Positions 5,742-64,000 of a DNA stretch of 64,000 bases are shown here, in pieces. The notes below the pieces were generated by a model. That model saw only the letters and a list, made by a program, of their open reading frames with translations, searched no databases and had not been told where the DNA came from. The translations under genes were made by a program, and so were the position numbers. Source of the stretch: Octopus sinensis. Taxonomy: Eukaryota. Numbering within the stretch: position 1 is the stretch's first letter; each line of letters starts with the position of its first letter. Where the stretch lies: NCBI RefSeq assembly GCF_006345805.1, contig NC_043005.1, positions 103,416,001-103,480,000 on the forward strand, in the 5' to 3' direction.

Positions 5742-6325
5742 GGTTTTGTTTTCACACAACACGGCTAGTTGAAACAAACTAGTTGTTACATTATGTATTG
5801 CGTCAATGTGTCATATTAGCCAATCAGTAAAACGGATCAATAAAATAAACTATTCTGATCACTACAATTTGCTGAAAACTTGGCTTTCCTTGCTATCCAC
5901 GTAACAGGTGGATATTTTAACCTGAATTATCAATCTAATGTTCTTTCATCCTAGCATTCAATTCAGGCAATAACTCACCGATTGCCTCGTTATGTTACCT
6001 GTTCAGAGGCTTTCTATGTCCAGGGTTATGAAGACTTGTATATTCGCCATTCCAATGCATCGCCAAAAGCATCACTCATCCCCTGCTCACTACATTGCAT
6101 CATGAGAGTGACCACAAATTAGCGGTCGACATCACAACGGATATCATTTAATGTGGCTTTCATATTTCTCCATGTTTTTCTATTCCAAATATTGTGGAAA
6201 TTACTATGTTTAGGAATGTCTTGTACAACCTGGGCTTGTACGGGACACAACTTCCATAATGAGTTATCAGCTTTGAAGGTAACATATACTTTCTTCCTCT
6301 ATACTAAAAAGAGTTATATACCACA

Positions 6326-6720
6326 CTAGCAGTATCGCCCGGCGTTGCTCGGGTTTGTAAGGGAATTAACTATATAAGCATTTTTAGAGATATAAAGTAT
6401 GACAGCCATCTCAATATGGCTAACCACAAAGGGGGGGGTGTTACTGTAGCTTTTTACGTTCTGAGACTTAATAATAAATTTTTAGAGAGTTACTTCCCTT
6501 ATATATGCCAAAAATGCATTAAAAATGGGACAAAATGATGGTAATTTTTTTTTAAATCGTAGACTCATCTTAGATGCGCGTTAATACCCAGAAGGGCTCG
6601 ATAGGAATCACGACTATAAGATACCCGGTTTTGGTTAAACTGCACCGCAAAATGTGGGAGTAGTTAGGAATCTAAATCGTAGAAGACAGACAGCACACAA
6701 CCTCACTTTTATATATAAAG
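6326..6720 (-). mobile_element. Non-autonomous Helitron-like element
   Basis: Minus-strand 3' end CCCGAGCAACGCCGGG hairpin followed by CGATACTGCTAG|T; 5' end CTTTATATATATAAAAG; homolog at 41059-41384. Confidence 0.75.
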
Positions 6721-13145: not shown

Positions 13146-14610
13146 CGACGTGCATTCCAGAAGGTTTGAGAGTTTTATATATGAAGCAATCATAATTTCC
13201 TAAGTTATTGTGATTTTAGAATATCATTATTATACATATAGTATGGTGGCCAATATTTTTTTCAGACTAGAGAAATCGGATGTGACACCACATTAATCTC
13301 ACCCTAATAAACACCGCTTGTTACAGCTCCCTAGTTTGTAGAATTTAGTCGGGACAATTTGAAGCTTGCTAAGCAATAAGCTTTTGTTCTAAACTGGCAG
13401 AAAACGATACAGAACCTTATGAAATGCTCCATACACCTTATGGATAAACTTGTGCGAATCGGTCATCTGCTTTTCGCTGGCACAAGAGGTTCAAGGATAG
13501 TAGAGAAAAGATGAGAGATATTGAGAGGAGTGACATGGTCAGGGGCCGCAGAACATCAGAGTGGGTTGAGAAAATTCGGAATTTTCTGGATGGAAACTAT
13601 CGAGTGCTTATAAAGACAAAACGCATACAGTTTGACGATGATGTGGAAATTGTTCGCTGAACGGTTCAAGGATAGCAGAGAAAAGATGAGGGACGATGAG
13701 TGGAGTGGCATGGTGAAGGGCCGCAGAATATCATCGTGGATTGGAAAAACTCGGAATTTTCTGGATGGTAACTGTCGAATGTCTATAAAGACAACAAGCA
13801 TGCAGTTTGACGATGATGCGGCAATTGTACTCGGAATTATTGACGAAGATCTGAGCATGTGTAAAATGTGTACAAAGTTTTGTTCCCAGTCTGGTCATTG
13901 ACGAACAAAAGGAAAGGAGCGTCTGTAACTGCAGGGAGATTGTTGAGTTAATTACCTCCAACCCAAGAGTAAATGAGTCTACGATGACGTATGACGAAAG
14001 CTGGACCAACTGTTGTGATCCAGTGACCAAGAGACTGAGTACTCAATGGAGGTATCTTGTCTCCTCGCGGCTTAAGAAAGCCAGGCAAGCACCTTCACCT
14101 GGAAGCTCATGTTATCCTCTTTTTCAACAGTAAGGACATCATCTACATGCTCTGGTGTCCTTCTGACCAGATGATGAACAAAGAGTATTTTGTGGAGCTT
14201 TTGAAGAAATTTAGGAAAAAGTCACATCACAAAAGCCAAAGTTCTTCTACTCGGGTCGATGGCACCAAGACGAGGTAATGCAGCAACAGTCCACAATTCT
14301 ATTCTGCTAAACAAATACTTGACAGAGATGGGCATCAAAACTATCCGTCATCCTCCCTTGAGTCCAGATCTCGTTTCCTGTGACTTTTGGTTACTCTCCA
14401 AGCTGAAAGAAAATTTGGGTACTGAAGACTTTGTTAAGATGAAGACGGTTGTGTCAAAGGCCTTTGACACCTTCAGTTTCGCGGACGTCCACGGAATCTT
14501 CATGAAGTGGCCGAAGCTCTACAGCAAGCACATTGAAATGAGAGAATCCTACTTTGAAAGTTGTTAAAGTTTTGTACTTCTTTGAAATAAAGAAGTTTCT
14601 GGAATGCAAT
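13146..14610 (+). pseudogene. Tc1/mariner transposon with decayed transposase
   Basis: TIR remnants TGCATTCCAGAA / TTCTGGAATGCA; motifs WHKRFKD, TYDESW..DP, WHQD..NA, HPPLSPDLVSCDFWLLSKLKENL; many stops and frameshifts. Confidence 0.9.
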
Positions 14611-21129: not shown

Positions 21130-21918
21130 GTGCATACGTACGTATGTCATTATACCTTCTTACCTCTTCTCTGATTCCTACCTATCACTAACCTGTCACA
21201 TACGTCTATTTATAGTAATTTGACATCCTTGTGTTCTTCCCTCCACCTGATATTTTACTACCAAAACTACTACTCACTTCAGCATCACTCCACCCATACC
21301 TTTTCTCTACCCATCCCTTAATGCAGGTCTGTCATATCATCCCTCATCCCTACTCACATATCTCACATTCTTTTACTTCTTACCTTCTCATCTCTTCCTA
21401 TCCCTCTTCCACTCCTCTCCCATCATCCAATCACTTTAACTTGGCCACAAACTACCACTTCTTTTCTCACTTCTTTTACCCTTTCTTCCCTTTCTTCACT
21501 ACCCTCACTTTTTGTTTTCTCTCTCCCTTTTTCTTTTTTTTTCTTTTTTCTCTCTTTCTTCCTCTAATTTTCTCTTCCTGTTCTGAATTTGACCGATCTC
21601 CTCTTCCTTATCATAAACATATCTCCTCCATCCATCTATCCACAAATACTACCAATATATTCTCAAATTTTCATTCATACAACAAAACATATCTATTTAT
21701 ATCTTATTTCTATTTTCATTCTAATATTTCTCCCTAAATACGCTATCTCCTCCTTTTTTCATAATAATTCGAATTCAAATATTTCCTCAATTCAACCTTC
21801 TCACACCGTCTCTGATGAAAGGTTATCCATAATATCCCAGAAACAGCTGTAAGGTTATTTTCTTATAAATGTCCTGAAAACTCCTCACAGCCTTGGATTT
21901 GTTATCTCATTCTCCCTT
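21130..21918 (+). mobile_element. Pyrimidine-rich Penelope-like non-autonomous element ending in an HHR motif
   Basis: CT-rich body partly repeated at 19510; HHR motif at 21808-21855; flanked by microsatellites. Confidence 0.55.
21808..21855 (+). ncRNA. Minimal type-I hammerhead ribozyme motif with partly decayed stem II
   Basis: GTCT-CTGATGA-aaGGtTAT ccata ATAtCCca-GAAA-C AGCT G-TA-AGGT; palindromic stem III ACAGCTGT. Confidence 0.7.
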
Positions 21919-25849: not shown

Positions 25850-25946
25850 GATTTCCCCTAAAGATGTTGTATATACGGATGTTATACCTTTGTTCTTAAA
25901 GAACAAAGGTATCGCATCCGTATATACAACATCTTTTGGGGAAATC
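25850..25946. repeat. Near-perfect hairpin (arms of about 47 bp) preceded by a direct partial copy
   Basis: GATTTCCCCTAAAGATGTTGTATATACGGATG..GTTCT versus its reverse complement; 25819-25851 repeats part of the arm. Confidence 0.9.
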
Positions 25947-41058: not shown

Positions 41059-41384
41059 GGTGCAGTTTAACCAAAACCGGGTATCTTATAGTCGTGATTC
41101 ATATCGAGCCCTTCTGGGTATTAGCGCGCGTCTACGATGAGTCTACGATTTAAAAGATAATTTACCATAATTTTTTTCCATTTTAATGCATGTTTTTGCT
41201 ATTGTATAAGGGAAGTAACTCTCTAAAAATGTCTACGATGAGTCAACGATTTTTAAAAAAATTTACCATCATTTTTATTCCATTTTTAATGCATTTTTTT
41301 GCTATTTTTTTGCTATAACTCTCTAAAAATGCTTATATAGTTATTTCCCTTACAAACCCGAGCAACGCCGGGCGATACTGCTAG
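41059..41384 (+). mobile_element. 5'-truncated Helitron-like element
   Basis: Ends in CCCGAGCAACGCCGGG hairpin plus CGATACTGCTAG|T; homologous to 6326-6720; has an internal sub-duplication. Confidence 0.75.
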
Positions 41385-41770
41385 TATCTACTAATAAGCA
41401 TCATTCATTCTAAAATGTTGTCGTTCCTTTGTTTCTAACGAAAGCCATTTTACTATAGATGGATTATTAAAAACACAATATATAAGAAACATAAATATAT
41501 TGTAATTACGATGACGGAAAAATTAAAACCATTTCGAAATCTTCAGTTCACACATTTTCAAATACATTTTAGCTGTCAGTTACTATTCACTTGTAAAATA
41601 TTGCTTACTTGTACTTTTATTTTTCGGTAAACTCTTGTTTGCATATTGCTGTATACTTTATTAAAACTATTCTGTAGTGAAACATGGTTTATATTGGATT
41701 GGAAACATCGCGAAAACTAAATGAGTTATAAAGCAATAACAGCTCCATTCGTTTCATGTTTATTATAATT

Positions 41771-42924: not shown

Positions 42925-43370
42925 GATGTGATGGCCGTCCACTCGTGACCGAGGAAGACCATTGCCGACCTTCAGGAACATTGTGCGCTCTAGGACTAAC
43001 TTATATTTTGCCTTTGCGGCTCCGTTGGTGGCTAATGAGCCCTGCTCTTGACAAACATACACAACTGCAAACATTGCAGACCAAGCTTTCCCCATTTACT
43101 ATACGAGCCGTGCACTTTCGCGCAGCTCGCTTAAGTTCTTCATGCTGGATACGTGCTCTCTCAAAAGTGTCGATCCCCTCCTTAACCTGCTTCCTCCATC
43201 TGTGGCGATGACAGGCATTGTTCTCCCAGTCAGAGTCCTGCATATCAAAGGCCTTTAACGAGGACTTGACACAGTCCTTAAATCGCAGCCTTGGTTTCTG
43301 CCGGAGTCTCCTTCCATTCACAAGTTCTCCATAGAGCATCTGCTTAGGAATCCTTCTATCCTCCATTCTA
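42925..43370 (-). pseudogene. RTE-clade LINE 3' fragment
   Basis: RMEDRRIPKQMLYGEL..PRLRFKDCVK..CNVCS..SRAGLISHQR with C-terminal zinc finger; inserted in (TACA)n. Confidence 0.9.
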
Positions 43371-43467
43371 ATAATACATACATACAAATACATACACGCA
43401 ACAGATTCTCTATCATCATCAAGTAACAGTTCTTATATTTAGTGGTGAAACTTGCTACCGACTTGAC

Positions 43468-46185: not shown

Positions 46186-46603
46186 AAAGATGGCGAGCTG
46201 GCAGACACGTTAGCGCGCCGGGCGAAATGCTTACCGGTATTTCGTCTGTCATTACGTTCTGAGTTCAAATTCCGCCGAGGTCGACTTTGCCTTTCATCCT
46301 TTCGGGGTCGATAAATTAAGTACCAGTTACGCACTGGGGTCGATATAATCGACTTAATACCTATGTCTGTCCATGTTTGTCCTCTCTATGTTTAGCCCCT
46401 TGTGGGTAATAAAGAAATAGGTATTTCGTCTGCCGTTACGTTCTGAGTTCAAATTCCGCCAAGGTCGACTTTGCCTTTCATCCCTTCGTGGTCGATAAAT
46501 TAAGTACCAGTTACGCACAGGGATCGATGTAATCGACTTAATCCGCTCGTCTGTCCTTGTTTGTCTTCTCTCTGTGTAGCCCATTGTGGGTAGTAAAGAA
46601 ATA
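46186..46603 (+). mobile_element. Family A SINE dimer flanked by one TSD pair
   Basis: TSD GGTAGCTGCATT(A/G)CCA at 46170-46185 and 46604-46619. Confidence 0.9.
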
Positions 46604-47003
46604 GGTAGCTGCATTGCCATTAGAAACAGTACGTTGTTGGTGAGATGGTTATAGGCGGTACTGAAGTAGAGAAAAACGACCTATCATCTACGCGAAACAA
46701 TTGCATATAAACTTTTGGTAAAGTCCCCTATGGCTCACCAAATTACTGAACATACATCAATTTGACGACACCATGGTGAACATTAGTGTTAACCTTCAAA
46801 TTTTGGTTAACTCTGAATATTTCTACCAATGCTTTCCATTTAGCATTCTTATTGAGCTTCAGCATTGTCTAATTAACCTTGGGTATTTTTATACGTGTTC
46901 TCCACGATATAACCTAGATTTTGTTTTATGAAGTAAAACTTAGTGTATTTCTAAAATCATGGAAAGTAAACATGACAACAACAACAACAACAACAATAAC
47001 AAC

Positions 47004-51479: not shown

Positions 51480-51537
<58 letters not shown>

Positions 51538-52028
51538 ACACGGAATGAAAAGGTTTTAAAGCAGCAGATTGTCGTCTGCTAGAAGAAGTAAACTAGGAAG
51601 ATGAATTCTTAGAAACTAGATCCGATGTGAAATGAAGAGTTTTCCTGACACAACCGACTGTTTAATAAGTGATTCCATCTATTGTTAACGTACCGTCCTA
51701 TCTCCGCCATCTTGCCACTTCATCAAGTCTCACTATTTTTTTTTTTGCTAAAATATTTACCGTCTTCTTCATATTTTATTATTAATACATCCTTGAATTT
51801 TGTTTTCTTTATTTTTAATATATTCACCTCTGTTTGTTTGGATTTTCGTTTGTTTATTTCTCTCAGCTTGGTTTCTTTTAGAATATTTTGTTTTATCTTT
51901 AGCTTTCTGGCTAACAACATTGTTCGCCATTTTCGCTTTCTTTCACTCCTTCTCACATATTTTGTCGCAGCCAACTCTTTCTCTTTATTTCTTTTTCTTT
52001 TCATTCACACATAATGTATATATATATG

Positions 52029-52062
<34 letters not shown>

Positions 52063-52117
52063 TATAATTTTATTTTATATATATCGTATTCAGTATATAT
52101 TGTCAAATTTTTTTACA

Positions 52118-52171
<54 letters not shown>

Positions 52172-52662
52172 ACACGGAATGAAAAGGTTTTAAAGCAGCA
52201 GATTGTCGTCTGCTAGAAGAAGTAAACTAGGAAGATGAATTCTTAGAAACTAGATCCGATGTGAAATGAAGAGTTTTCCTGACACAACCGACTGTTTAAT
52301 AAGTGATTCCATCTATTGTTAACGTACCGTCCTATCTCCGCCATCTTGCCACTTCATCAAGTCTCACTATTTTTTTTTTTGCTAAAATATTTACCGTCTT
52401 CTTCATATTTTATTATTAATACATCCTTGAATTTTGTTTTCTTTATTTTTAATATATTCACCTCTGTTTGTTTGGATTTTCGTTTGTTTATTTCTCTCAG
52501 CTTGGTTTCTTTTAGAATATTTTGTTTTATCTTTAGCTTTCTGGCTAACAACATTGTTCGCCATTTTCGCTTTCTTTCACTCCTTCTCACATATTTTGTC
52601 GCAGCCAACTCTTTCTCTTTATTTCTTTTTCTTTTCATTCACACATAATGTATATATATATG

Positions 52663-52702
<40 letters not shown>

Positions 52703-52748
52703 TTTATTTTATATATATCGTATTCAGTATATATTGTCAAATTTTTTT

Positions 52749-52750
<2 letters not shown>
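51480..52750. repeat. 634-bp near-identical tandem duplication joined in (CA)n
   Basis: Identical ORF triplets offset by 634 bp (51682 and 52316). Confidence 0.95.
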
Positions 52751-52835
<85 letters not shown>

Positions 52836-54188
52836 CCTATATACATACACATACTTATAAGCGTCTATGCTTGTGTGTGTTTGGTGCGTGTTTAAACATT
52901 ATAGCCGCGCGACAAACAAATAAATATGGATGCAGGCATTAATATATCTTGAATTTTTATGTTTGCATATATCTTTGTCTCTTATTCTTTAAAATTTTTA
53001 TCTAAAGCAGGATTTGATTTCTAAGCAGGACACCATCTCCATTTTGAAAATCCAGGAAAATCTTTCATATTTCCACTGTTCCACTTACAGAAGGAATTTT
53101 CAGAATACGTAGAAAAGTGGCTCTTTTTTTTCCTTGTTTCGGCCTTTTCAAGCGATTGCATTTATATACTTAGCAACATAATCAAGAGGGCCACTCATTA
53201 TGGACATAGATGTGAATTTTTATATTAGGTACAAAAGTCGTAGATTTGAAAGTAACTAACCAAAATTGTCTTAACCCTGAATTTTTAATGTAATGCTTAC
53301 TTCATTTAAGTATCTCACCTTTATGACAATATATGCTTTGTTGGAATGTAGAATGTTTTTTTTTCTCCTACGTTCTTCATTGAATTAGGTTCGCTCAGAA
53401 GCTCTGGAATCGCTTACATTTTGTTCCTTTCACTTTTGATCACCTGGCCGATTTGTTTGTGTTTGCAGTTTTTACTTATCAATCACTACATGAATGATTT
53501 TATATGACACTCTTTTCTTGGGATATAATCTACCAATAATTCTATTCCTAAGGTCACTTGCCGAAGATACCAGGATCTTCGATGTTTTGAATATTCTTTC
53601 TCGTGCAGTTAAGAATTCAAACTTCTAATATCAATATGCATAGAACAAATTCACTACCGGAATATGTTTTGTGAAAGGAAAACACCGACTTGCACATTTT
53701 TGAAATCTGGTATGATCTTCTTGGGTCACTACAATTATCTGATGCACTTGGGAATTTGAAGCATTCATTGTGTGAAATGGTAAATACAGATACCACTGAT
53801 GTTAATGTTCCCCCCACGTTCATCTACAAATCGATAACGAATCCATTAGCCAAGTACCAAGTATGTGGTTAACCACACCCACTGTACCTAATGACTAGAT
53901 AAAGGTCCATGGGATCAATATATCAGTTTCCTGAACGCTTACAACCAAATATAGCCTTTATTGAAATAGATTAGATGGATTAGAGATCATTGAGACAATG
54001 CTTTCCTGAAGGACAATATAGACTTTGTGAGGTATATTTGCCATCTCAATATGGCTAACCACTAAGGGTGGGTGTTACTGTAGCTTGTAGCCCCAAGAGA
54101 ACATCTCCAGCTGGCTATAGGCATACTTTCTGTGCCCTATCGGTATTTGCAAAGGGAAGTCATCCTTCCCTCGTCAACCTAAGTGATA

Positions 54189-54233
54189 CACACGGACTGC
54201 AGTTTCTGGGTATTGACCCGTCATCAGCGTACG
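54189..54233 (-). ncRNA. Minimal type-I hammerhead ribozyme with intact core
   Basis: Minus strand CGTACG-CTGATGA-cGGGT caat ACCCa-GAAA-CTGCAG-TC^CGTGTG. Confidence 0.85.
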
Positions 54234-54763
54234 ACAATCACCGGTTTTCGATGAAAGGAGTTCCCAATTCAAATATTTATATCCTTTTTCCAGTAACTTT
54301 TCGTCACTGATCTTGAAAAAGTGTATAGAAGCAATAATAAATCTCTGAACGAGGTATAAACAGATGCAGACAAATGAAAGAGATAAATAATAATGTACAT
54401 TCAGTTTACGAACACTTCAACTTTAATTCTATAGTACTCTTCACTTAGCATTATAGTTACCTGGTACTTCTACACTGGTAAGTTATTCTACTAATATTAC
54501 AATTAGGAAAGACTAAATTGAATACGGTTGAATTCCAACTAAGAGTTAAAAAAATAAAACTTAACTGAACTTACGAAAAATATTTTCTCTAATATGCTGC
54601 CGCTTCAATGCTATCATCAGTATTCAAATTTTCGAAAACAAGAAAATGGCTCATATAATACAGGTAAAATTCAATCTCAGAATATTCCCAGCGATTACAT
54701 CTAGTGCTGCGTGTGCGCACACGCGCATCCACGCACTCACACACACAAGTGTATATATATTCG

Positions 54764-60184: not shown

Positions 60185-61255
60185 GACTCGCCTTCTATCA
60201 ACATGCGCTATCGCTTGGACGGCGGACTCTTCAATCTCGCACGCCTCCGTGCAATGACGCCGATCTCCGCTGTCTTAGTCCGTGAGATGCAGTATACCGA
60301 CTACAATACCACTCCGAGCCGGACCGCAGATGGCCTACAAAGGGCGGCCGATCTTTACGAACGCTTAGGGATGCAGGTAAACACATTAAAGACCAAGACA
60401 TTGATCCAAGCTGCACTAGGCTAGAACAGTCCACCCACAAACATTAGCATCGACGGCCAATCTCTAGAAGACGTTGAACACTTCGCCTACCTTGGGAATA
60501 TCCTTTCGAAGACCCCCACGTGTGAAAGGGACGTGGAGAACTGGATTGGGGCGGCCCACTCCGCCTTCGGGAGACTCAACCAACATGTATTCTTCAATCA
60601 CGCGCTGACCATTCAGACACAAGAATCATGGTCTTCCGTGCCATTGTCCTGTCAGCTCTACGCTTGTGTTACTTGGACGTTGTACTGCCGTGACTTGAAG
60701 CGCCTTGAATGCTTCCAGCAATCGAAGCTACGACAGATCCTCAGTATATATTGGGAAGATCACGTTACCAACAACGAGGCTCTTCACCGCGCCTCACAAC
60801 CAAGTGTTTCCGCTGGTTGGATCACGTCCAGCGCATAAAAACCTCTCATCTCCCAAGGATCATGCTCTACGGAGAACTTGCAATTGGAACAAGACCCAGA
60901 GGAGGTCCGAAATTCTGTTTTAACGACCAGGTCAAACGGACCTTGGCTCAAGCTAACATCCAGAAATCCTCATGGAAACAGATTGCCATGGATAGGCCAG
61001 CCTGGAGGACTGCTATACGCAATGGAACTATCTCCTTCGAGCAGAACAGACAGCAGAATGAGGAGGAAAAAAGCAGGAGAAGAAAGGAGAGTCTTCAACA
61101 TCCTCGACCTGCACTGACCATCCCGTGCAAGTTCTGCCCACGACTCTTTCACCACCGACTTGGACTCCAAAGTCACTTTCAGCACAAACATCAGCCGAGG
61201 AGACTGGGTGGAAACTGACGAACCCAATGCTCGGATACGGGCTGGAGTCGACCAT
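60185..61255 (+). pseudogene. RTE-clade LINE, RT through 3' end, frameshifted
   Basis: RYRLDGGLFNLARL..REMQYTD (decayed YADD), FAYLGNIL, RWLDHVQRI..LPRIMLYGEL..CKFCPR..GLQSH. Confidence 0.92.
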
Positions 61256-62480: not shown

Positions 62481-62627
62481 ATATAGATGTTTTCGATCTA
62501 GTTTGGATTCTTTGCCATCAAATTTGAATTCTTTGCAATCAAATTTGATTGCAAAGTCTTCAAATTTGATGGCAGAGAATTCAAATTTAATGGCAAAAAA
62601 TCCAAACTAGATCGGAAACATCTATAT
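62481..62627. repeat. Palindromic fold-back built from 21-bp subrepeats
   Basis: TATAGATGTTTTCGATCTAGTTTGGATT at left, AATCCAAACTAGATCGGAAACATCTATA at right; internal unit ATTCTTTGC(C/A)ATCAAATTTGA. Confidence 0.9.
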
Positions 62628-63314: not shown

Positions 63315-64000
63315 TTAATTTTGGCATAAGACTAGCTGTTGTAAGGGGAGAGGGAGTGGATTACATCAATTTCAGTACTTGATTGGTACTTTATGTTGCC
63401 GATTCCAAACAGATGAAAGTCAAAGTTGATAACGGAGAAAAATGAACTCAGAACATAACGGCAGACGAAATACCTATTTCTTTACTACCCACAAGGAGCT
63501 AAACACAGAAAGGACAAACAAGGAACAGACAAACGGATTAAGTCGATTATATCGACCCCAGTGCGTAACTGGTACTTAATTATCGACCCCGAAAGGATGA
63601 AAGGCAAAGTCGACTCGGTGGAATGGAATTTGAACTTAGAACGTAAGGGCAGACGAAATCCTATTTCTTTACTACCCACAAGGAGCTAAACACAAGAAAG
63701 GACAAACAAGGACAGACAACGGATTAAGTCGATTATATCGACCCCAGTGCGTAACTGGTACTTAATTTATCGACCCCGAAAGGATGAAAGGCAAAGTCGA
63801 CCTCGGTGGAATTTGACTTAGAACGTAAGGGCAGACGAAATACCTATTTCTTTACTACCCACAAGGAGCTAAACACAGAAAGGACACAAACAGACAGACA
63901 AACGGATTAAGTCGATTATATCGACCCCAGTGCGTAACTGGTACTTATTTATCGACCCCGAAAGGATGAAAGGCAAAGTCGACCTCGGTGGATGGATTTG
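63315..64000 (-). mobile_element. Family A SINE tandem multimer, at least 3 units of about 185 bp, running off the window
   Basis: Repeated GACGAAATACCTATTTCTTTACTACCCACAAGG..AAAGGCAAAGTCGAC. Confidence 0.9.

What the first reader, a model, noticed from the sequence alone, without database searches (positions are those of the whole stretch)
54040..54255. Intact minimal GUC hammerhead in an otherwise anonymous stretch
Minus strand shows a 6-bp stem I (CGUACG/CGUGUG, two G-U), perfect CUGAUGA and GAAA, a 4-bp stem II (GGGU/ACCC with a C.A mismatch at the base) and the 8-nt palindrome ACUGCAGU before GUC. Predicted cleavage is between 54195 and 54194. This is the best candidate for dimer-dependent activity.
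Basis: partly seen in the sequence, partly recalled or inferred. Interest (0 to 1): 0.7.

Follow-up and report, generated by a model that had tools for sequence, protein, structure and literature searches.

The report
Solo retrozyme copy with hammerhead ribozyme
This is one stranded copy of a small, protein-less repeat with more than a thousand ribozyme-bearing copies in the genome; its predicted self-cutting RNA motif would likely work best in pairs, and its insertions carry the footprint of Penelope-type jumping genes, which likely spread it.

Summary
The hammerhead is real: every element is at the stated place, with the cut site at 54195/54194, and 0 of 300 shuffles match it. The stretch is not anonymous. 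It is a solo 338-bp copy (54363-54026, minus strand) of a 352-bp non-coding repeat with at least 1,112 ribozyme cores in the genome: a non-LTR retrozyme. The motif is a canonical metazoan type I hammerhead, not a 'minimal' one, and is closest in form to axolotl HHR_Amex2. Subfamilies change the helix III loop (TGCA, TCGA, CCGG, TCGG) but keep it self-complementary, which supports a paired active form. Published analogues suggest dimer-enhanced rather than dimer-dependent cleavage. This copy has no neighbouring partner and is probably inert. Insertions look Penelope-made: 99 of 108 end at one of two sites about 48 nt apart, 48 have an inverted arm, and 37 of 39 two-armed copies use opposite sites. 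5' ends do not pile up at the cut site (1 of 16). Intact Penelope ORFs exist in the genome, but none tested shares sequence with the repeat. The scan reported this kind of family, with the same footprint, before on other DNA of this genome.

The parts
54026..54363 (-). Solo copy of the 352-bp retrozyme unit (unit positions 1-338); no tail, no inverted arm, no target-site duplication found
   Evidence: differs from the majority letter of sister copies at 8 positions; best other copies 96% over 221 nt
54183..54241 (-). Type I hammerhead ribozyme motif including the upper stem I helix
54228..54233 (-). Stem I, 5' strand (CGUACG)
54189..54194 (-). Stem I, 3' strand (CGUGUG); T54190 is a private change that turns a G-C pair into G-U
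54221..54227 (-). Catalytic core CUGAUGA
54207..54220 (-). Helix II: C.A mismatch at the base (family-wide, 117 of 128), 4 bp, CAAU loop; first pair is G-C or A-U by subfamily
54196..54203 (-). Helix III / 8-nt palindrome ACUGCAGU (2 bp plus tetraloop as monomer; 8-bp duplex as dimer)
54194..54195 (-). Predicted cleavage site after GUC (unit position 166/167)
   Evidence: inferred from hammerhead numbering
54026..54030 (-). 3' end at the first of the family's two fixed end sites (unit 331-342), the predicted reverse-transcription start without the ~48-nt tail
   Evidence: PMC11167929

Best explanation
This is a solitary, 3'-anchored copy of a 352-bp non-coding repeat with a type I hammerhead motif (a non-LTR retrozyme), likely inserted by the reverse transcriptase-endonuclease of a Penelope-like element acting in trans. 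Shown: the family, its copy numbers, the two fixed 3' ends, inverted arms, short target duplications, microsatellite targets, stem covariation and self-complementary helix III loops. Inferred: transcripts spanning two units pair their 8-nt palindromes into a double hammerhead and cut after GUC; unit-length RNA may be ligated into circles. Inferred: the Penelope enzyme nicks AT-rich DNA and starts reverse transcription at one of two sites about 173 and 221 nt downstream of the cut site. It copies straight through the cut site, so the template is uncut or re-ligated. This copy started at the first site, stopped after 338 nt and, having no partner, is probably a dead or weakly active end product.
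For: Family: 50 matches among the 40 scored of 3,987 candidates; 1,112 loosely specified cores against 0 for the reversed control; 352-bp head-to-tail units. Penelope footprint in 108 de-duplicated insertions: 99 end at unit 330-343 (56) or 26-40 of the next unit (43); 48 have an inverted 5' arm; 37 of 38 two-armed copies with both ends classed use opposite sites (37 of 39 with the C30 array). Microsatellite flanks occur in 60 of 108 against 13% background; 9-14-bp duplications in 18 of 48 non-simple sites against 4 of 894. These match the pLTR, inverted-copy and one-sided-tail signature and the two RT start sites of the anole Penelope. Structure under selection: 94.5% of cells paired, 7 of 17 pairs with double changes, 0 of 500 shuffles as high, slid controls 60% or less. 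Helix II G-C (75 exact cores) against A-U (67). Loop III in the first 100 of 1,112 rows (hand count): TCGA 22, TGCA 15, CCGG 14, TCGG 12, 34 one step from these, 3 two steps. Intact RT + GIY-YIG ORFs of 775-781 aa are in the genome.
Against: No autonomous partner was identified. The unit shows no sequence similarity to the Penelope sequences tested: BLAST against 30 GIY-YIG loci and 10 larger stretches found only a retrozyme array and two unrelated neighbouring retrozyme insertions, and local alignments stayed within shuffle range. Only 150 of 5,029 GIY-YIG candidates were scored. The tail (about 42-51 nt) is longer than the published 30-40 nt. No cleavage or circle was observed. The monomer's lowest-energy fold (-11.9) is not the hammerhead (-7.1), and the dimer's lowest-energy fold (-34.1) keeps the palindrome duplex and helix II but not catalytic stem I (-31.1 for the double hammerhead). 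5' ends are not enriched at the cut site (1 of 16 events). Only 3 of 110 sampled loci hold same-strand cores at about unit spacing. Some apparent covariation lies at CpG sites and may be decay. 8 of 9 tested Xenopus retrozyme dimers did not cleave in vitro.
Confidence: 0.8

Rival explanations
1. The unit is the orphaned pseudo-LTR of an autonomous Penelope element, so the dispersed copies are 5'-truncated autonomous insertions and not an independent non-autonomous element.
For: Same end signature. One autonomous family here carries a type I hammerhead with a mismatch at the helix II base and a palindromic helix III in its 3' repeat. Xenopus retrozymes are homologous to pLTRs.
Against: In copies that extend 5' beyond unit position 1, the upstream sequence is the previous unit or host flank; no shared upstream sequence appears across loci. 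No tested Penelope locus shares sequence with the unit. The two cases beside Penelope ORFs (L117, L126) are separate insertions bounded by (TA)n.
Confidence: 0.12
2. The ribozyme of this family cleaves well as a monomer, like the coral and mussel retrozymes; the palindrome is incidental and this solo copy could cut any transcript that reads through it.
For: 2-bp helix III with a tetraloop and an extended stem I, as in invertebrate retrozymes that cleave as monomers at 0.8 and 0.1 per min. Most genomic copies are solo.
Against: The family-wide C.A at 10.1-11.1 resembles the weak U.U of HHR_Amex2. The two central loop bases switch between GC and CG; adjacent bases cannot pair within one hairpin, so their kept complementarity has meaning only in a dimer. 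Computed helix III pairing in the monomer is about 0.
Confidence: 0.25
3. The hammerhead is now a passenger: retrotransposition uses uncut read-through RNA, and cleavage is not needed for spread.
For: No pile-up of 5' ends at the cut site. Four copies share a U4-to-C core change together with other diagnostic letters, which suggests that a core-altered master was copied. In the anole Penelope, ribozyme mutants inserted normally in vitro and no reads ended at the cut site.
Against: Compensatory changes in helices I and II and repeated palindrome-preserving changes between subfamilies imply selection on the ribozyme fold during amplification. A re-ligated circle would also leave no 5' pile-up.
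Confidence: 0.25
4. The motif is a chance match or a degenerate fragment of satellite DNA.
For: No Rfam hammerhead hit; no unusual folding energy.
Against: 0 of 300 shuffles; more than 1,100 cores against 0 control; covariation.
Confidence: 0.01

Closest known systems
Metazoan non-LTR retrozymes, closest in form to axolotl HHR_Amex2 / Rtz_353 and the mussel 350-390-bp repeats (PMC7229834; passages and parts 2-3 of 6 read)
   Same: About 350-bp non-coding unit, 44% GC, one type I hammerhead per unit, 2-bp helix III with tetraloop, mismatch at the helix II base, dispersed and tandem copies, target duplications longer than 4 bp, Penelope elements in the same genome.
   Different: C.A instead of U.U at the helix II base; mostly solo or two-armed copies rather than long arrays; circle fold only modestly stable (z -1.86); circular RNA and cleavage not shown here.
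Retrozymes as non-autonomous Penelope derivatives (bioRxiv 10.64898/2026.07.22.740005; parts 1-3 of 5 read, supplements closed)
   Same: Co-occurrence with Penelope elements; monomers scattered across chromosomes.
   Different: That work rests on co-occurrence and pLTR homology in 35 genomes (vertebrates, three insects, one anthozoan). Here pLTR homology was not found; the link is the insertion footprint (two end sites, one-sided tail, inverted arms).
Penelope-like elements: anole PAc (PMC11167929; parts 1-2 of 4 read) and the general insertion structure (bioRxiv 10.1101/2021.04.23.441226; passages)
   Same: Two fixed 3' ends, tail on one end only, inverted 5'-truncated copy, partial tandems, AT-rich and microsatellite targets, hammerhead upstream of the start sites.
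   Different: No ORF; tail about 48 nt rather than 30-40 nt.
Minimal Penelope hammerheads, min-HHR (PMC4209133; parts 1-2 of 4 read)
   Same: Type I topology, palindromic 15.2-16.2 region, dimer model, a nucleotide after A9 that does not form a standard pair.
   Different: min-HHRs lack helix III, have a 7-8-bp helix II, a 4-5-bp helix I and a conserved G10.1-C11.1; this motif has the canonical 6/4/2 sizes and an extra A before G12.

Membership tests
Type I hammerhead ribozyme | Core CUGANGA, GAAA and NUH joined by three helices, stem I open | tested here: met
Type I hammerhead ribozyme | Structure conserved with compensatory changes | tested here: met
   (44 of 128 rows given, chosen to span subfamilies; core columns partly fixed by the search patterns)
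Type I hammerhead ribozyme | Standard pair at 10.1-11.1 (usually G-C) | tested here: not met
   C.A in 117 of 128; a tolerated variant by analogy with U.U in HHR_Amex2
Type I hammerhead ribozyme | Self-cleavage after C17 | not testable with these tools
   no assay; only assembled contigs of runs were available
Minimal Penelope hammerhead (min-HHR) | No helix III, long helix II, short helix I | tested here: not met
Non-LTR retrozyme | 150-450-bp non-coding unit with one type I hammerhead, GC below 50% | tested here: met
   352 bp, 44% GC; no frame of 110 aa or more in the window copy
Non-LTR retrozyme | Occurs as tandem repeats and dispersed monomers | tested here: met
   C30 array with five cores; further same-strand pairs at 344-358 bp; this copy is a monomer
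Non-LTR retrozyme | Target duplications longer than 4 bp | tested here: met
   18 of 48 non-simple sites, 9-14 bp; none at this copy
Non-LTR retrozyme | [quoted passage not shown] | tested here: inconclusive
   circle 64% paired, z -1.86; contigs cannot show circles or ends
Penelope-like element (non-autonomous) | One-sided tail, inverted 5'-truncated copy, partial tandems, microsatellite bias | tested here: met
Penelope-like element (non-autonomous) | Sequence shared with an autonomous partner | tested here: inconclusive
   none found in the loci tested; only 150 of 5,029 candidates scored
Penelope-like element (autonomous) | RT + GIY-YIG ORF between pLTRs | tested here: not met
   no ORF at the window copy; no shared upstream sequence across sister loci

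The most novel reading that the evidence does not exclude
The family is a protein-free, natural read-out of Penelope integration. A dimeric RT-endonuclease primes the two nicked target strands at two different fixed sites of one uncut or circular RNA, so two-armed insertions end at opposite sites (37 of 39). A dimer-gated hammerhead, whose palindrome has been rewritten several times without losing symmetry, cuts only multimers and spares the monomer circle that serves as template. The 352-nt RNA would then be a minimal in-trans substrate for Penelope enzymes with no detectable sequence homology to them.
Probability: 0.35. Interest if true: 0.65.

Novelty: new member of a known kind. Interest (0 to 1): 0.4.

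Why it matters
How animal non-LTR retrozymes are mobilised is still argued from co-occurrence and pLTR homology. This family gives a countable footprint (two end sites, opposite sites on the two arms, read-through of the cut site) that ties a retrozyme to Penelope-type integration, and it names exact priming positions for an in vitro test. The palindrome swaps are natural evidence for the double-hammerhead model. The single copy in this window is ordinary and probably inert. Three literature searches bore on prior description (hammerhead, retrozyme, octopus; hammerhead ribozyme, cephalopod, Penelope; retrozyme, Penelope, inverted, tail, non-autonomous); none listed a paper that by title describes this family. 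Supplements were not seen and repeat libraries were not available.

Tried and rejected
Rfam: no hammerhead among the 150 of 202 window matches shown or in the 601-nt region at E<=10; taken as model insensitivity. Second hammerhead in the window: 21812-21843 and 54584-54620 fit only the bare core pattern, and 59035 (minus) is a weak descriptor hit; rejected as partners. Expression: no RNA holder listed. Runs guessed as RNA gave contigs only; their depth is higher downstream of the cut site, but DNA runs show a similar skew towards the 3' part, so this was not used. The flank was uncovered in run X1, which is no evidence. No empty-site contig was seen. L117 and L126 as pLTRs of Penelope: rejected, both bounded by (TA)n. 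C30 array as a single rolling-circle event: not supported; the forward units are 98-100% alike and the reference unit has 8 letters rare in other copies, while the inverted arm is 93.8% alike, which fits later DNA-level amplification. The arm-against-arm identity test was uninformative because the alignments spanned the junctions. Lunse et al. 2016 was not held and is known only from a review passage and its reference list. A look-up of earlier findings by sequence and one near the place returned nothing.

Full report
Observation. The minus strand from 54241 to 54183 holds a complete type I hammerhead. Stem I pairs CGUACG (54233-54228) with CGUGUG (54194-54189). The core is CUGAUGA (54227-54221) and GAAA (54206-54203). 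Helix II is GGGU/ACCC with a CAAU loop above a C.A mismatch. Helix III is the 8-nt palindrome ACUGCAGU, and GUC ends at 54195. A full descriptor matches once in the window and in 0 of 300 shuffles. The bare core pattern is not above chance, Rfam has no hit, and folding energy is unremarkable.

What it belongs to. A search of the window's own genome (G000, 2.7 Gb; earlier scan notes call it an octopus, which I did not test) gave 50 matches from the 40 scored of 3,987 candidates, at 92-97% apart from the self match. Alignment of 30 loci defines a 352-bp unit, of which the window holds positions 1-338 (54363-54026). L027 has head-to-tail units. Core counts in the genome, each with 0 for the reversed control: 75 exact, 67 with the A-U helix II pair, 271 with loop TGCA, 219 with CCGG, 195 with TCGA and 1,112 with any loop. 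These patterns differ in strictness and give lower bounds. The unit is 44% GC and the window copy has no frame of 110 aa or more. This fits the metazoan non-LTR retrozymes of PMC7229834.

Is the ribozyme under selection? In 128 motif copies every predicted pair is kept in 112-127 rows, and the C.A mismatch is family-wide (117). On 44 of these rows, chosen to span subfamilies, 94.5% of cells pair and 7 of 17 pairs show double changes, above all 500 shuffles and all slid controls. Relatedness, CpG decay and pattern-fixed core columns inflate these figures. The clearest cases are helix II G-C/A-U (77 and 35 rows against 5 A.C and 8 G.U) and the stem I switch seen in the older subfamilies. Loop III in the first 100 of 1,112 rows, counted by hand, is TCGA 22, TGCA 15, CCGG 14 and TCGG 12; 34 rows are one step from these and 3 are two steps. 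A tree of 85 of 95 loci, built from sequence downstream of the ribozyme, nests the TGCA copies inside CCGG copies and needs several CCGG/TCGA changes (at least 3 for TCGA on starred branches; bootstrap unsettled). The central two bases switch between GC and CG. Adjacent bases cannot pair in one hairpin, so kept complementarity points to an intermolecular helix III. Computed energies agree: palindrome duplex -11.1 kcal/mol, monomer helix III pairing about 0, double hammerhead -31.1 against twice -7.1. In both monomer and dimer the lowest-energy fold is not the active one.

Dimer dependence. By the definitions in PMC4209133 this is the canonical metazoan form, not the min-HHR. Coral and mussel monomers cleave at 0.8 and 0.1 per min. 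Axolotl HHR_Amex2, with a 2-bp helix III and a mismatch at the helix II base, cleaves 22% in an hour alone and much better as a dimer. Dimer-enhanced is therefore the best inference. The window copy has no second family core in the window and a private C-to-T at 54190. Only 3 of 110 sampled loci carry same-strand cores at about unit spacing. This locus is a poor test case; natural tandem pairs are better.

How it spreads. Of 120 loci, 12 duplicates were dropped, leaving 108 insertions; they were selected by similarity or by exact core, so they are biased to well-kept copies. 56 end at unit 330-343 and 43 at 26-40 of the next unit, about 48 nt further on; 9 end elsewhere. 48 have an inverted arm at the 5' side. 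Of 38 with both ends classed, 24 have the tail on the inverted arm, 13 on the main arm, 1 on neither and 0 on both. The C30 array is a second 'neither', giving 37 of 39. Microsatellites flank 60 of 108 (background 395 of 3,011), and 9-14-bp duplications occur at 18 of 48 other sites (background 4 of 894). Penelope insertions are described with an inverted truncated copy, a 30-40-bp tail at one end and microsatellite bias. In the anole element the tail is the distance between two internal RT start sites. The genome has intact RT + GIY-YIG frames (the RVT_1 scores lie just under Pfam's cut-off), but none tested shares sequence with the unit.

Template. With a pattern anchored just downstream of the cut site (252 matches, first 100 listed; rows whose first base is C are excluded by the pattern), 81 rows read through the whole core and 2 have internal deletions. 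The other 17 rows (16 events) have a 5' junction within about 42 nt, and 1 event is at the cut site, about what chance gives. Cleaved linear RNA is thus not the usual template. Uncut multimers or re-ligated circles both fit, and copies longer than one unit exist. The one long array examined looks like later DNA-level amplification rather than one rolling event. Public runs offered only contigs, so expression, cut ends and circles remain untested.

Verdict. This is a new member of a known kind, a non-LTR retrozyme with a Penelope insertion footprint. Earlier notes of this scan describe a 352-bp family and the two-start-site pattern on other DNA of this genome; I had reached and counted these before the look-up. 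The single copy is ordinary. The family is a useful test bed for retrozyme mobilisation and for the double-hammerhead model. Interest 0.4.

Noticed in passing
window 6325-6646 (compare 41059-41385): A different repeat carries a 48-bp piece of the retrozyme's 3' region at 6405-6452 (94% to 54040-54086). The sister copy at 41059-41385 lacks it. In DNA runs this piece is far deeper than the ribozyme part, with loose ends running into that repeat, so the chimeric form seems highly amplified. One end has a hairpin and CTAG, a Helitron-like look (recalled, not tested).
   Followed up: partly
L126:2745-5069 (-) and L129:5120-5180 (+): A Penelope family (775-aa RT + GIY-YIG frame) has its own type I hammerhead in the 3' repeat, with a U.U at the helix II base and a 6-nt palindrome; unrelated in sequence to the retrozyme.
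   Followed up: partly
L121-L124, L127: A young Penelope family (97-99% identical copies, 781-aa frame; a 479-aa upstream frame with no Pfam match in two copies). No hammerhead was found in its 3' repeat by my descriptor; it ends in (TA)n.
   Followed up: partly
L095 (minus strand, position 175 from the far end) and L121:84 and 6019 (+): Other hammerhead-like motifs unrelated to this family: one with a perfect 14-bp stem I and a CCGACGA core, one duplicated in a 653-bp direct repeat flanking a Penelope copy.
   Followed up: no
G000:C2:34233904, C5:53148477, C7:29105563, C8:66892151: Four family copies share a U4-to-C change in the core plus C at position 7, which suggests a small subfamily amplified from a core-altered master.
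   Followed up: no
G000:C3:81270253; C8:95391370: Rare copies have C instead of A at 11.1, one with G at 10.1, giving the canonical G10.1-C11.1 pair.
   Followed up: no
window 39952-40303, 46236-46607, 63443-63992, 37056-37498, 13488-13828: Partial tandem repeats of 175-194 bp; the 182-185-bp ones belong to one abundant dispersed family; no hammerhead core found in them by the descriptor scan.
   Followed up: no
window 62482-62626 and 25854-25942: Long near-perfect hairpins, seen as sub-threshold microRNA-family hits in Rfam; probably MITE-like or fold-back repeats.
   Followed up: no
window 51480-52769: A 657-bp direct duplication at 99.5% identity; recent duplication or assembly artefact.
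   Followed up: no
window 60425-61215 (+), 43004-43432 (-), 14205-14564 (+): Open frames that look like decayed LINE (RTE-type) and mariner transposase pieces (resemblance recalled, not searched).
   Followed up: no
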